DNA of 64,000 bases from the human T2T-CHM13v2.0 reference genome, Homo sapiens. Under the pieces are notes generated by a model. That model worked only from the letters and a program-made list of their open reading frames with translations. It was not told the origin of the DNA and did no database searches. The stretch lies in NCBI RefSeq assembly GCF_009914755.1, contig NC_060943.1, one strand, 5' to 3'. The translations under genes were made by a program, and so were the position numbers. Below are positions 17,031-19,630 of this stretch, in pieces (positions within the stretch are counted from its first letter, which is position 1; each line of letters opens with the position of its first letter).

Positions 17031-17153
17031 TCAAAAAGAAAAAAAAAAGAAGAAAAAAGAAATCTAAAACAACAGCAACTTCAGTGTGCAGGAAGGAGCA
17101 AGAGAAAGACAAAAGAAACAGAAAAAGAAAGAAATAAATAAAAATAAAACAGC

Positions 17154-17455
17154 GGCCAGGCGCGGTGGCTCACGCCTGTAATCTCAGCACTTCGGGAGGC
17201 CAACGCGGGCTGATCACCTGAGGTCGGGAGTTCGACACCAGCCTGACCAACATGGAGAAACCTCGTCTCTGCTAAAAATACAAAATTAGCCAAGTGTGGT
17301 GGCACATGCCTGTAATCCCAGCTACTCGGGAGGCTGAGGCCCGAGAACCGCTTGAACCCAAAAGGCGGAGGTTGCAGTGAGCCGAGATCGCGACTTTGCA
17401 CTCCAGCCTGGGTAACAAGAGCAAAACTCCGTCTCAACAAGCAAACAAACAAAAA
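17154..17455 (+). mobile_element. Alu (AluSp/Sq-like) inserted in relic A
   Basis: CCTGACCAACATGGAGAAACC diagnostic; TSD AAAACAGC; absent from copy B. Confidence 0.93.
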
Positions 17456-17666
17456 ACAGCAACTCAATGTACTGTGGAAACAAACTTGAAGTGGGGCTAG
17501 GAAAACAAAAAAAAGAAAACAAAAACAGAAAGATCCCCTGAGCCTCAGCTACTCGGAGGCCGAAAAGAAAGGATTGCCTGGGTGAGCCCGGGAAGGTGGA
17601 GGTCGCAGTGAGCAGTAATCGCACCCTCTACTGGATCTTAGCGGTTCTGCAGCCGAGGAGAGCCAT

Positions 17667-17887
17667 CTGGTCCGTCTTAAATATTTCAAGCTGGTGGCCA
17701 AGTCCTACACTCTTGGCCGACATCTGGTGGACCCGGCGGCCGGACTGAGAAGCCAGCAGGTAGAGGCCCAGCGGATCCACCCTACAGGCCAAGGGTGGCG
17801 CTCGCGGCCTGAAGCTGTTTTTCTGGCATCTAAGTCGCCAACCTTCCTTCCCACCGCGCCCCCAACCCCCATCTGCTGATCGATGTG
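17667..17887 (-). terminator. Degenerate Pol I terminator (Sal-box-like) cluster, copy A
   Basis: Minus strand: CACATCGATCAGCAG (17873-17887), GGGTGGATCCG (17772-17782), GGGTCCACCAG (17724-17734), AGACGGACCAG (17667-17677), against human Sal box GGGTCGACCAG. Confidence 0.6.
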
Positions 17888-18974
17888 GGCGGTGGAAAGA
17901 GGAGCAAGGGCTCAAGCGCAGGGACTGCCCCCCCGGTGACCATCCCACCCGCGGGGTGGGAGAGGGCAGGGACCCAGACTGCCACCCCCGGGCCCTCACA
18001 GCCATACCTGGGATGGGGCCTGCCGGGCCACACCCCCGGACACCTGCAACTGAACCATCCATACCATGCTTCCCCAGCCCTATCCCAGCCGGTGGATCGA
18101 GCTGCCACCACCCCCACTCCCAGGAATGAGGGGAGGAGCCAGGAACCAGAGGGGTGGGAGGCCAAGCAGGGGAGCCCCCCAACCCAAGGCACCCACCACG
18201 CAGCACGCCGTCCCTTTCGGCGCTCGGAAAGCCCTCGGGCGAACCCCTCCCGAGCCCACCCCTCCCGGGACCTCAGAAGATGGCTCAGGACGGCCCCTGA
18301 CTCTCCATGGGGACTTGGGAATAAACTCGGCAGGCGCCTCAGACAGTCGGGACCAGCGTGGGCGTCCCTGGCCCCCTGCGTCAGGCCTGGTGGGTCCTGC
18401 GGGTCGGGCCTCGGCAGTTGCAGTGCGCTTGGGATCAGCCGGGGCAGCCCCACACTCGGCTCGGGCTGGGAGCGCGGGGACAGCCTCCCAAGCCACAGCC
18501 CTGCGCGCCCGACCTCCGACTCACAAGGGACGCGCCAGAGCTCTGGTCCCATTGAGACAGTTCAGCTGAAGGCTGCGGGCCTTCCCGAGCTCCGCCCAGC
18601 TCACAGCGGGGACGGTCCCTCCCTCGGCAGCTGCCGCTGGAGCTCCGGAGGACAAGAGAACTTAGAGAGGTGGCCTCAGTGGAGCCCGACAACCAGCGCG
18701 AACGTCAACAAGACAGATCGAGATGGCAAGGGCAGCTCGTGGGCGAAATGGATCCACCCGACCCCAGAAATGATCCCCGATACGTGGCTCTGCATAGACC
18801 ACGACAGAGTCCAGTCAAAGACAACCCGTGGGTGTGGGTGTTTGCAGATGCTTGGAGATGCATCTCAGCGGGAGAAAGAATGACCAGGACTCGGTAGTGG
18901 GTGGTTTAGGACACAGGGAGATACAGAATGAGGAGACTGTCCCAGAATCCACACAAAGACGGACAGACGACGAA

Positions 18975-19630
18975 CGGAAGGAAGGAAATAAAACAGAAAA
19001 AAAAAAAAGAAAGAGAAGAGAGAGAAAAAAAATGAAGAAAGAGAAAGAAATATCAAAAGAAAAATAGAGAAAATAATGAAAAGAAAAAGGGAAGATGAAA
19101 AAGGAAGGAAAAAGGTGGAGAGACACAAAAAGAAAAAGGAAGAAATGAAGGAAAAAAGGAAAGAAGAAAGAGAGAGGGGAAAAAAAGAATACAAAGAAAA
19201 AAGAAGAAAATAAAAGAGGGCAGAGCATGGTGGCTCATGCCTGTAATTCCAACACTTTGGGAGGCTGAGGTGGGAGAATCACTTGAGCCTAGGAGGTTGA
19301 GACCAGCCCTGACAACATAGTGAGGCCCTGCCTCTACTAAAAGTTAGCCAGGCATGATGCCACATTCCTGTAGTAGGAAGGAAGGAAGGCAGGAGAGGAG
19401 GAAAAAAAGGGAGGAAGGTAGGAATGTTGAGAGAAAGGCAGGAAGGAAGACAGGAGGGAATGAAGGAAGTTAGGGACCAGGTTCTACAAGGAGGAAATGT
19501 TAAAAAGAAACAGAGAAAAAGAAAGGAAGAGAGAAACACAGGAAGAAAAAGGGAAGGACAGTAAGAAAGAGACAGAAAGGGAGAAATTATGAAAATAGAA
19601 AGAAAAGAAAAAAAGTAGAAAGATGAAAAT
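18975..19630. repeat. GA-rich low-complexity tracts with an embedded old Alu monomer (19218-19372)
   Basis: Almost pure purine plus strand; FLAM/AluJ-like monomer in the middle. Confidence 0.9.

What the first reader, a model, noticed from the sequence alone, without database searches (positions are those of the whole stretch)
17040..19630. 'Empty' rDNA unit: pre-promoter spacer fused directly to the 3'ETS/Pol I terminators inside a ZNF cluster
Seen: read on the minus strand, the element runs CT-rich tract, GC-rich block (18880-18290), second GC-rich block, four Sal-like boxes, T-rich tract. Recalled homology: the first GC block matches human rDNA IGS within roughly 1-2 kb upstream of the 45S start, and the second matches the 3'ETS and first terminator repeat. 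The core promoter, 5'ETS, 18S, 5.8S and 28S would therefore be cleanly missing. GGAAGGGGTTTGCCTG near the junction in copy B (~40611) resembles the last bases of 28S (AAGGGTTTGTCCG), which would place the fusion near the 28S 3' end (tentative). Inference: an ancient cassette holding only rDNA regulatory sequence, 4 kb from a KRAB-ZNF promoter, and likely missed by rRNA-based repeat annotation. The two joined ends are the regions TTF-I brings together in rDNA gene loops, so loop excision is one possible origin.
Basis: partly seen in the sequence, partly recalled or inferred. Interest (0 to 1): 0.85.

Follow-up and report, generated by a model that had tools for sequence, protein, structure and literature searches.

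The report
Gene-less ribosomal DNA relic near ZNF730
This is a decayed, very old copy of ribosomal DNA spacer in which the sequence just upstream of the rRNA gene is joined directly to the sequence just downstream of it, with the gene itself missing; it was copied around the chromosome 19 zinc-finger gene cluster together with a neighbouring satellite repeat.

Summary
Read on the minus strand, window 18964-18258 matches the rDNA intergenic spacer at -1264..-438 from the 45S start (71-76% identity, E about 1e-65). Window 18242-17696 matches the 3'ETS from about +83, the first Sal-box terminator and the next Sal box. That second match is weak (72%) but specific: z=12-14 against shuffles, with promoter, 5'ETS, ITS and 28S controls at background. 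No promoter, 18S, 5.8S or 28S remnant is present.

The element is not a small regulatory cassette. It is the truncated end of a much longer spacer relic. Paralogs at chr19:21.62 Mb and 23.04 Mb carry collinear spacer from unit positions 17.6 to 43.9 kb before the same 3'ETS block. At 23.04 Mb a 3'ETS block lies on both sides of the spacer.

The junction is shared by copies A and C, so it predates the duplications (non-CpG K about 0.13, tens of Myr). A 71-bp satellite follows the relic in six copies.

Copies A and C keep CpG-island composition. Copy C supplies exon 1 of LINC00664.

Verdict: a real, old variant of the known displaced-rDNA relics, of moderate interest.

The parts
18970..19640 (-). 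CT-rich tract, interrupted by a half-Alu at 19220-19362. It is the positional counterpart of the CT-rich microsatellite that precedes -1264 in the rDNA unit.
   Evidence: composition; CT-tract hits to L031 283-505 and other CT tracts; the rDNA has the same CT-rich run just before the block-1 homolog. As low-complexity sequence, homology cannot be proven.
18258..18964 (-). Block 1: homolog of the rDNA intergenic spacer at -1264..-438 relative to the 45S start.
   Evidence: 40 of 40 scored chr21 rDNA units, period 44,385 bp, 71% over query 263-723 plus two flanking pieces at 76%; window 18964-18258 = L031 708-1534, E down to 4e-65; landmarks.
18212..18258 (-). Junction interval. Upstream-spacer homology ends at 18258-18237 (-438..-414) and 3'ETS homology begins at 18242-18212 (+83..+104).
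   Evidence: one-jump alignment; copy C gives -434..-416 and +121..+140; no similarity above chance to the last 60 nt of 28S.
17887..18242 (-). Block 2a: homolog of the unique part of the 3'ETS.
   Evidence: A 18234-17696 = L032 5048-5492, 313/434 identical; 3'ETS +1..+383 only: score 43, z=12.2, 0/200 shuffles; controls z<=1.4.
17876..17886 (-). Degenerate positional homolog of the first Sal-box terminator T1 (4 mismatches to GGGTCGACCAG).
   Evidence: Alignment against L032:5346 (Sal box located).
17724..17734 (-). Sal-like box GGGTCCACCAG (1 mismatch). It is aligned with the Sal-like site at L032:5455. Copy C has the exact 11-mer here.
17640..17875 (-). Block 2b: the rest of the terminator-region homolog.
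   Evidence: block 2 against the 3'ETS+T1..R1 segment z=14.1; against R2 z=7.7.
17560..17639 (-). Old Alu-like fragment shared by copies A, B and C, so it was present before the duplications.
   Evidence: 17628-17583 hits Alu places in the spacer; aligned in A, B and C.
17466..17559 (-). T-rich tract ending the relic. It may correspond to the CT-rich end of an R repeat.
   Evidence: one search shows the T/CT-rich run after the Sal boxes in the rDNA. Low complexity, so not provable.
17091..17465 (-). Younger full Alu inserted in copy A only (absent at this place in B).
   Evidence: A 17443 joins A 17129 in B; masked repeat.
1..16822 (-). Diverged satellite block (about 71-bp period) that follows the relic. 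LINC01858 lies inside it.
   Evidence: period 71, 66-67% matches; dense self-similarity; same flank at 85-86% after copies B, C, E, F and at chr19:23.70 Mb; 73-75% relatives on all five acrocentric short arms.
40566..41424 (+). Copy B: the last ~50 bp of block 1, then block 2, inverted relative to A, with decayed CpGs. It overlaps a RefSeq 'H3K4me1 hESC enhancer' (40946-41445).
   Evidence: 82% to A 18311-17443; (CpG o/e 0.20).
42050..50400 (+). Satellite block following copy B, the inverted partner of 1-16822. The two blocks bracket ZNF730 exon 1 (22338-22591).
   Evidence: window 1-22000 against 36001-64000: many minus-strand matches, 84-89% for the best.

Best explanation
The element is a decayed relic of ribosomal DNA that contains spacer only. 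In an ancestral rDNA-derived segment, the spacer about 0.43 kb upstream of the 45S start became joined to the 3' external transcribed spacer about 0.1 kb past the 28S end. This removed the promoter, T0, 5'ETS, 18S, 5.8S, 28S and the first part of the 3'ETS, about 13.5 kb in modern coordinates. The segment held most of a spacer and carried a 3'ETS/terminator block at both ends, so it was at least one gene-less unit long. It lay next to a roughly 71-bp satellite. It sat in proto-19p12 before the KRAB-ZNF cluster expanded and was copied with the satellite blocks that bracket the ZNF genes. It survives today as at least seven partial chr19 copies. Copy A in this window is truncated to the last 0.8 kb of spacer plus the 3'ETS/terminator block. 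Shown here: the two homologies, the absence of the gene, the shared junction, the long collinear spacer in the paralogs, and the shared satellite flank. Inferred: that one non-homologous deletion made the junction (whether in the rDNA array or after transfer cannot be told), the age (tens of Myr), and the present role. Nothing indicates Pol I function. Copies A and C behave as CpG islands that have escaped methylation decay, and copy C has been taken over as the promoter-proximal first exon of LINC00664.
For: Block 1 homology. Block 2 homology and specificity: searches (collinear chain; z=14.1 against 3'ETS+T1..R1; 8 other rDNA segments z<=2.9, plus R2 at 7.7), and (5 of 5 copies z=8.5-19.1, 0/200 shuffles each). 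Gene absent: (0 Rfam matches at gathering score in 87,160 bases). Same breakpoints in A and C. Junction found only in the chr19 family: (9 matches; no junction elsewhere). Long collinear spacer: (D: unit 13.14-13.40, 17.6, 30.5, 31.9-32.7 at E 1e-116, 32.9-33.4, 37.2-37.6, then 13.27-13.41; C: 37.95, 38.9, 39.5, 43.5-43.9, then block 2). These segments are specific to rDNA and its relics. Satellite flank shared at 85-86%. Divergence: (non-CpG K=0.133 for A-C block 1, 0.137 for A-B block 2, 0.23-0.26 to modern rDNA). CpG: o/e A 0.58, C 0.56-0.62, B 0.20; CpG kept in A but TG/CA in B at 21 sites against 2 the other way; polarised by C, 8 against 0. LINC00664 exon 1 lies in C block 2 and includes an exact Sal box, with a GT donor.
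Against: Block 2 identity is low (about 72% with many gaps). With lenient gap costs, A 18258-18150 also aligns to the promoter-proximal spacer up to -314, so the breakpoint is known only to a few tens of bases. One control was not flat: C against the start of the 5'ETS gave z=4.5. A-C divergence in block 2 (K=0.29) is twice that in block 1 and is unexplained. D's two 3'ETS blocks both begin at an Alu, and the first is followed by the A-type flank before the spacer resumes, so the arrangement of more than one unit could come from a later rearrangement. C's continuation to unit 14.6 and 16.5 kb rests on weak hits (E 0.002 and 8e-5). CpG retention is indirect evidence of hypomethylation, and no methylation or expression data were seen. 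No other primate sequence was available.
Confidence: 0.8

Rival explanations
1. Circle or gene-loop origin. The 45S gene was looped out between its TTF-I-bound ends. Alternatively the spacer was excised as an extrachromosomal circle whose closure is the observed junction, and a linearised or rolling-circle copy of that spacer-only circle integrated at 19p12.
For: The junction joins sequence upstream of T0 to sequence upstream of T1. The two breakpoints lie at similar distances upstream of those sites (about 262 bp and about 285-306 bp). Locus D has a 3'ETS block on both sides of a spacer, the circular-permutation pattern that a circle-derived concatemer would give. Hori et al. 2021 (passages read) suggest that Sal-box/TTF-I fork arrest may be a recombination hotspot.
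Against: The breakpoints are not at the Sal boxes, and T0 itself is lost. The T0- and T1-proximal regions show no homology that could align them (score 22 against a shuffle mean of 22.5; 108/200 shuffles at or above it). A simple deletion inside a transposed piece of tandem array gives the same product. D's duplicated block may be a later rearrangement.
Confidence: 0.15
2. The junction is not a deletion. The ancient rDNA unit had a terminator-like duplicate upstream of its promoter, and the element is a contiguous piece of that unit.
For: Modern units do carry one Sal-like box (T0) upstream of the promoter. With lenient gaps, part of block 2 can be aligned to -438..-314.
Against: Block 2 matches the unique 3'ETS, which has no counterpart upstream of the modern promoter, in 5 of 5 copies, while promoter-proximal controls are at background (z -0.9 to 0.6; z=2.2). 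The order 3'ETS, T1, next Sal box is that found after 28S. No promoter or 5'ETS follows.
Confidence: 0.05
3. The relic has been co-opted for its rDNA-type activity: as a TTF-I/Pol I terminator-like barrier or boundary between the satellite block and the ZNF730 promoter, or as a tether that helps bring the 19p12 cluster to the nucleolus.
For: The relic sits at the inner edge of each inverted satellite block bracketing ZNF730 exon 1. A and C resist CpG decay. Copy C keeps an exact Sal box. ZNF genes are 4-fold enriched in nucleolus-associated domains, and a large part of chr19 associates with nucleoli (Nemeth et al. 2010, passages read).
Against: In copy A both best Sal-like sites are mutated in the core. 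Relaxed Sal motifs are not enriched. A crude CTCF consensus gives no significant signal (2 found against 0.42 expected, 6/100 shuffles reach 2). Copy B has decayed like neutral methylated DNA. No binding data were available.
Confidence: 0.1
4. Block 2 resembles the 3'ETS only by chance because both are GC-rich, or two unrelated rDNA fragments landed side by side.
For: Identity is only about 72%, both sequences are 65-82% GC, and single BLAST pieces are weak (E 2e-7 to 0.86).
Against: Dinucleotide-preserving shuffles never reach the observed score (0/200 in each of 5 copies). Equally GC-rich 5'ETS, ITS1, ITS2 and 28S expansion segments score at background. The pieces are collinear and on the same strand as block 1. 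Copies D1 and D2 are closer to the 3'ETS than A is (z=16-19). Spacer continues collinearly upstream in C and D.
Confidence: 0.02

Closest known systems
Displaced, degraded rDNA units near centromeres (Robicheau et al. 2017, Genome Biol Evol 9:380; abstract, outline, section 24 part 1 of 2 and a term search read)
   Same: rDNA-derived sequence including intergenic spacer, outside the NORs, highly degraded, collinear with the canonical unit, and incompatible with retrotransposition. In some searches, D's spacer segments also hit non-NOR places on chr12, chr20, chr8, chr2, chr14, chr15, chr22 and chrY; chr20 is the chromosome that paper analysed in detail.
   Different: Those relics were found with megablast and described as near full-length units including 45S (about 8 kb of the transcribed region on chr20). 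The main text has no mention of chromosome 19 or ZNF; its supplements were not seen. The chr19 family is far more diverged (71-76%), lacks the 45S entirely through a defined junction, and is part of an amplified gene-cluster duplicon.
Beta-satellite blocks bracketing ZNF genes in 19p12 (Eichler et al. 1998, Genome Res 8:791; recalled only, the paper is not held)
   Same: Inverted satellite blocks bracket the 5' end of a ZNF gene. The period is about 71 bp. Relatives lie on the acrocentric short arms. The age is tens of Myr, and I recall that paper estimating about 50 Myr.
   Different: As far as I recall, that paper does not describe an rDNA spacer/terminator relic at the edge of the blocks. 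I could not check this. The name 'beta satellite' for the repeat here is my recollection, not a tool result.
Non-canonical units inside human rDNA arrays (Hori et al. 2021, Genome Res 31:1971; passages read)
   Same: Deletions and other irregular units do arise in arrays. The R-repeat/Sal-box region is variable and was suggested as a recombination hotspot.
   Different: Those are rare (<1% in healthy samples) somatic or polymorphic variants within arrays. This is a fixed, ancient, gene-less unit outside any array.
Canonical human rDNA unit (chr21 unit of this genome, L031-L035)
   Same: The order and orientation of the spacer, 3'ETS, T1 and the next Sal box are kept, and a CT-rich tract precedes block 1 as in the unit.
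   Different: There is no promoter, T0, 5'ETS, 18S, 5.8S, 28S or first ~80 nt of the 3'ETS. CpG o/e is 0.5-0.65 against 0.95-1.09.

Membership tests
rDNA-derived relic (displaced rDNA pseudogene) | Significant homology to the canonical rDNA unit at a site outside the rDNA arrays | tested here: met
   block 1, E to 4e-65; block 2.
rDNA-derived relic (displaced rDNA pseudogene) | Pieces collinear with the unit, including intergenic spacer (so transferred as DNA, not retroposed) | tested here: met
   collinear single-place spacer hits in C (4-5 pieces) and D (10 or more pieces), all on one strand.
rDNA-derived relic (displaced rDNA pseudogene) | Contains part of the 45S transcribed region coding for rRNA | tested here: not met
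   no SSU, 5.8S or LSU hit; no BLAST hit to unit positions 1-12,985.
Functional Pol I transcription unit | Gene promoter (UCE/core; pRNA region) and T0 | tested here: not met
   pRNA (RF01518) is found in the chr21 unit but not in the element at E<=10 or at gathering score in the window, C and D. Promoter-proximal control z=2.2 and 0.3.
Pol I terminator (Sal box, TTF-I site) | Exact 11-mer GGGTCGACCAG (motif recalled) in the position homologous to the terminators after 28S | tested here: not met
   Copy A: best site has 1 mismatch and the T1 homolog has 4 mismatches. Copy C does have one exact box. The chr21 unit has 10 sites with <=1 mismatch.
Pol I terminator (Sal box, TTF-I site) | TTF-I binding and termination or fork-arrest activity | not testable with these tools
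   No binding or functional data were available.
CpG island | Length >200 bp, GC >50%, CpG observed/expected >0.6 (criteria recalled) | tested here: inconclusive
   A block 1 0.65 (met), A block 2 0.51, A core 0.58, C block 2 0.62 (met), B 0.20 (not met). Asymmetric decay supports island behaviour of A.
Beta satellite | Tandem monomers of about 68 bp | tested here: met
   period 71, 4.6-5.2 copies scored, 66-67% matches; dense offset self-matches over about 16 kb.
Beta satellite | Match to the curated beta-satellite consensus (Dfam/Repbase) | not testable with these tools
   No repeat library was available. The distribution on chr13, 14, 15, 21 and 22 short arms, chr19p12, chr3 and chr7 fits what I recall of the family.
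19p12 ZNF-cluster duplicon | Multiple paralogous copies within the cluster that share flanks | tested here: met
   copies A, B, C, D1, D2, E, F. The shared satellite flank is at 85-86% at six chr19 sites.

The most novel reading that the evidence does not exclude
The relic is a sequence fossil of a germline event in which the whole 45S gene was removed from between its own upstream and downstream terminator regions, leaving a spacer-only unit at least one unit long. The event could have been gene-loop or replication-fork-barrier-associated excision, or a spacer circle. This NOR-edge module of spacer, terminators and satellite then seeded the satellite blocks that drove the primate 19p12 KRAB-ZNF expansion. 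Its surviving CpG-island copies may still act as boundary or promoter modules, or as nucleolar tethers, for the cluster.
Probability: 0.1. Interest if true: 0.75.

Novelty: new variant of a known kind. Interest (0 to 1): 0.45.

Why it matters
This gives a defined sequence origin for an unannotated GC-rich island 4 kb from a KRAB-ZNF promoter and for the first exon of LINC00664. It ties the satellite-bracketed 19p12 ZNF duplicon to sequence classes from the nucleolus-organiser neighbourhood. It also shows that very old rDNA relics, invisible to high-stringency searches and to rRNA-based annotation, can be recognised from spacer and 3'ETS homology. The clean loss of the whole transcribed unit, at a junction shared by paralogs, is a rare preserved example of a gene-less rDNA unit. 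Together with complete primate genomes, it could be used to date and reconstruct how rDNA pieces leave the arrays. The contrast between A and C (CpG kept) and B (CpG lost) offers a natural experiment on what keeps an ex-rDNA sequence unmethylated.

Tried and rejected
1. Collinear continuation of block 2 into the promoter and 5'ETS: rejected (z=2.2; z -0.9 to 0.6 for the promoter-proximal control). A lenient alignment to -314 exists, and C against the 5'ETS start gave z=4.5.

2. A 28S 3' end at the junction: rejected. Shuffles reaching the observed score against the last 60 nt of 28S were 284/300 (A), 149/300 (B) and 294/300 (C).

3. Unequal homologous crossover between the T0 and T1 regions: no homology in the modern unit (108/200 shuffles at or above the observed score).

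4. Sal-box enrichment with relaxed matching: none.

5. A CTCF-type boundary motif in block 1: none. The only hit in the element overlaps the Sal-like box, and the count is not significant.

6. Using the chr12:38.0 Mb relic as a proxy for the ancient promoter-proximal arrangement: uninformative, because that relic ends at unit position about 39.6 kb.

7. Spacer homology elsewhere in the window: none significant beyond blocks 1 and 2.

8. Rfam's first 28S end (L032:4251) was an artefact of the split hit. The true end is L032:4957.

9. Literature. No paper in the library holds rDNA, 19p12 and ZNF together on this topic (1 paper, a general review, listing only). The broader searches gave context only. 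The supplements of Robicheau 2017 and of Agrawal & Ganley 2018 (tables of conserved spacer regions and orthologous Alus) were not seen and could bear on chr19 hits and on dating.
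Full report
OBSERVATION. On the minus strand the region runs as follows: a CT-rich tract (about 19640-18970, with a half-Alu at 19362-19220), a GC-rich core (18964-17640, 55-71% GC in 200-bp windows), a T-rich tract (17560-17466), a full Alu (17465-17091) and more T-rich sequence. 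The core is not soft-masked in the RefSeq FASTA. That mask also leaves the neighbouring satellite unmasked, so it is not a full repeat annotation.

REFERENCE UNIT. A search of the window's own genome with 17560-19010 (minus) hit a chr21 array with a 44,385-bp period; 40 of 40 scored candidates were such units. I fetched one unit as five 10-kb loci, L031-L035, and placed landmarks on it. The pRNA is at L031 1835-1924, 18S at 5612-7480 and 5.8S at 8560-8712. The transcription start is at about L031:1972, read from the sequence using a start motif I recalled. The 28S end is at L032:4957, which corrects an artefactual 4251. The first Sal box, T1, is at L032:5346 (+389). Nine further boxes with <=1 mismatch lie in three repeats spaced about 700-810 bp. 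A T0-like box is at L031:1796.

BLOCK 1. Window 18964-18258 matches L031 708-1534, that is -1264 to -438, in three to four collinear pieces at 71-76% identity with E down to 4e-65.

BLOCK 2. BLAST of 18290-17560 against the whole unit gave a collinear chain in the 3'ETS/terminator region and nowhere else:
- 18212-18130 = L032 5061-5146.
- 18039-17981 = L032 5234-5293.
- 17949-17850 = L032 5286-5381 (E 2e-7).
- 17817-17787 = L032 5615-5645 and its two R-repeat copies.

Smith-Waterman scores against ten rDNA segments of equal length gave z=14.1 for 3'ETS+T1..R1 and z=7.7 for R2. The other eight segments (promoter-proximal spacer, three 5'ETS pieces, ITS1, ITS2 and two 28S expansion pieces) gave z<=2.9. 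The best alignment is A 18234-17696 to L032 5048-5492, with 313 of 434 ungapped columns identical. It places the T1 box opposite 17886-17876 and the site at L032:5455 opposite the GGGTCCACCAG at 17734-17724. When the target is restricted to the unique 3'ETS (+1..+383, no Sal box), all five copies tested are specific: A z=12.2, B 8.5, C 8.5, D1 16.1 and D2 19.1, each with 0 of 200 shuffles reaching the observed score. Controls were at background except C against the 5'ETS start (z=4.5). The second recalled homology is therefore confirmed, although it is weak.

WHAT IS MISSING. Rfam at E<=10 finds only Alu/SRP-type and chance hits in 16800-19900. At gathering score it finds nothing in the window plus loci L045, L049 and L042, 87,160 bases in all. 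No BLAST hit falls in unit positions 1-12,985.

THE JUNCTION. A one-jump alignment sums the best prefix score against the upstream spacer and the best suffix score against 28S-end/3'ETS. It puts the end of spacer homology at A 18258-18237 (-438..-414) and the start of 3'ETS homology at A 18242-18212 (+83..+104). Copy C gives -434..-416 and +121..+140. With lenient gap costs A can also be aligned on to -314, so the breakpoint is known only to a few tens of bases. They lie about 262 bp upstream of T0 and about 285-306 bp upstream of T1. The two regions have no detectable homology in the modern unit, so homologous unequal exchange is unsupported.

THE FAMILY. A junction-spanning query (17640-18420) finds the junction only on chr19. 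Taking this, the copies are:
- **A:** this element.
- **B:** window 40566-41424, plus strand, inverted relative to A. It starts about 50 bp before the junction and is 82% identical to A.
- **C:** chr19:21,621,566-21,622,686. It holds block 1 from -894, the junction and block 2.
- **D1 and D2:** chr19:23,035,911-23,036,541 and about 23,043,460-23,044,035. Each holds block 2 only and begins at an Alu.
- **E and F:** chr19:24.196 Mb and 23.547 Mb. Each holds only the distal part of block 2.
- **chr1 fragment:** a 250-bp piece at chr1:37,729,840-37,730,089.

With repeats masked, C and D show much more spacer. D runs unit 13.14-13.40 kb (3'ETS/T1), 17.60-17.74, 30.54-30.61, 31.94-32.72 (811 columns, 72%, E 1e-116), 32.92-33.41 and 37.22-37.64, then an Alu, then 13.27-13.41 again. 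C runs 37.95-38.01, 38.93-39.04, 39.49-39.62, 43.49-43.94, block 2, and then weak hits at 14.64 and 16.52 kb (E 0.002 and 8e-5). D's long segments are specific to rDNA and its relics. Apart from the acrocentric arrays they hit chr12, chr20, chr8, chr2, chr14, chr15, chr22 and chrY sites at 70-84%. The ancestral chr19 segment therefore held most of a spacer with a 3'ETS/terminator block at each end, at least one gene-less unit. One caveat is that D1 is followed by the A-type flank before the spacer resumes, so a later rearrangement cannot be excluded.

THE SATELLITE. Below 16822 the window becomes a diverged tandem repeat with a 71-bp period and 66-67% matches, with dense offset self-matches. 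It extends to the window start and contains LINC01858. An inverted partner follows B (42050-50400). The two blocks bracket ZNF730 exon 1. The first 700 bp of this flank recur at 85-86% after B, C, E and F and at chr19:23.70 Mb. At 73-75% they recur in inverted pairs on chr13, 14, 15, 21 and 22, just distal to the rDNA arrays; for example chr13:5.46 and 5.64 Mb, with chr13 rDNA hits starting at 5.81 Mb. The relic-satellite boundary therefore predates the duplications. I recall this repeat as beta satellite, and the inverted blocks as those described for 19p12 by Eichler et al. 1998. That paper is not held, so this is recollection.

AGE. Non-CpG K2P distances are 0.133 (A-C, block 1, n=338), 0.137 (A-B, block 2, n=523) and 0.23-0.26 (A or C to modern rDNA, block 1). 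At recalled primate neutral rates of 1-2.2e-9 per site per year, the copies split roughly 30-65 Myr ago, and the relic left the rDNA lineage earlier. A-C in block 2 is 0.29, which is unexplained (note 3). Agrawal & Ganley 2018 (passages read) report that even the human-marmoset spacer alignment is compromised by low identity, which fits.

PRESENT STATE. CpG observed/expected values are 0.65 (A block 1), 0.51 (A block 2), 0.58 (A core), 0.56-0.62 (C), 0.20 (B), 0.95-1.09 (modern rDNA) and 0.67 (ZNF730 promoter island). Decay is one-sided: 21 CpGs in A are TG/CA in B against 2 the other way, and polarised by C the counts are 8 against 0. A and C therefore look like islands protected from germline methylation, which is an inference. 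LINC00664 (NR_037194.1) starts inside C's block 2. Its exon 1 (L003 2180-2471) contains the T1 homolog and an exact Sal box and ends at an AAG|GT donor. B overlaps a RefSeq 'H3K4me1 hESC enhancer' and a Gnomon first exon. Nothing is annotated on A. There is no evidence of Pol I-type function.

COMPARISON WITH WHAT IS KNOWN. Robicheau et al. 2017 established that degraded rDNA units with spacer lie near centromeres. They used megablast genome-wide, and their main text has no mention of chromosome 19 or ZNF (supplements not seen). Hori et al. 2021 show that irregular units, including deletions, are rare within arrays, and suggest the Sal-box region as a recombination hotspot. Nemeth et al. 2010 report ZNF genes 4-fold enriched in nucleolus-associated domains. 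A search for rDNA, 19p12 and ZNF together returned one unrelated review. The chr19 family is thus a new variant of a known kind: much older, gene-less through a defined junction, and amplified as part of the ZNF/satellite duplicon.

VERDICT. The best explanation is an inert, ancient spacer-only rDNA relic co-amplified with the 19p12 satellite blocks, with island-like behaviour in two copies and exaptation in one (confidence 0.8). The origin by loop or circle excision remains open (0.15). Interest is moderate (0.45).

Noticed in passing
G000 chr1:37,729,840-37,730,089 (L041 1501-1750): A 250-bp fragment homologous to the 3'ETS-like part of block 2 (A 18180-17936, 69%) lies between Alus inside INPP5B, far from any other relic piece. 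It has no direct hit to the modern rDNA at E<=1e-4.
   Followed up: partly
window 52646-53677 and 53278-53451: A stretch inside ZNF730 intron/exon territory matches sequence just upstream of locus D (L045 518-1581, 73-78%, minus). It contains a weak minus-strand hit to unit position 17.42-17.59 kb (62%, E 6e-6) and may be another scrap of the spacer relic.
   Followed up: no
window 17716-17730 (minus): The G-to-C change that spoils the Sal box creates a CTCF-like core (1 mismatch to a recalled 15-base consensus). The count in the window is not significant (2 against 0.42 expected; 6 of 100 shuffles reach 2).
   Followed up: partly
blocks 1 and 2 of copies A and C (window 18680-17640; L003 1501-2560): A-C divergence is twice as high in block 2 (non-CpG K 0.29) as in block 1 (0.13), while A-B in block 2 is 0.14. 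Possible causes are gene conversion between the inverted A and B, faster change in LINC00664 exon 1, or misalignment.
   Followed up: partly
L048 (chr19:23,545,001-23,555,000), 6672-8949: Near copy F there is a paralog of the ZNF730 promoter/first-exon region (window 22366-24002, 80-86%). It lies within LINC01224/LOC105372335 and is in the opposite relative orientation to the relic compared with copy A.
   Followed up: no
G000 chr14:61,252,088-61,252,460: A spacer-derived piece (unit about 31.9-32.3 kb) lies on the chr14 long arm and is 84% identical to locus D's copy, the closest match found for that segment and closer than the rDNA arrays themselves (72%).
   Followed up: no
L045/L042, chr19:23,042,588: The annotated start of lncRNA LOC105372332 falls inside the spacer-derived part of locus D, at the join between unit 33.4 and 37.2 kb. 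This is a second lncRNA starting in relic sequence.
   Followed up: no
L045 8547-8659 and chr12:38,000,240-38,001,078: In both locus D and the chr12 relic, unit positions 33.4 and 37.2 kb are about 0.1-1 kb apart instead of 3.8 kb. The modern 33.4-37.2 kb stretch of the spacer therefore looks like a later addition.
   Followed up: partly
L032 1-4957: Rfam's combined scan reported the 28S hit as ending at 4251 although the model end was reached. A rescan of 3600-5600 placed the true end at 4957. Coordinates of very long split rRNA hits should be rechecked.
   Followed up: yes
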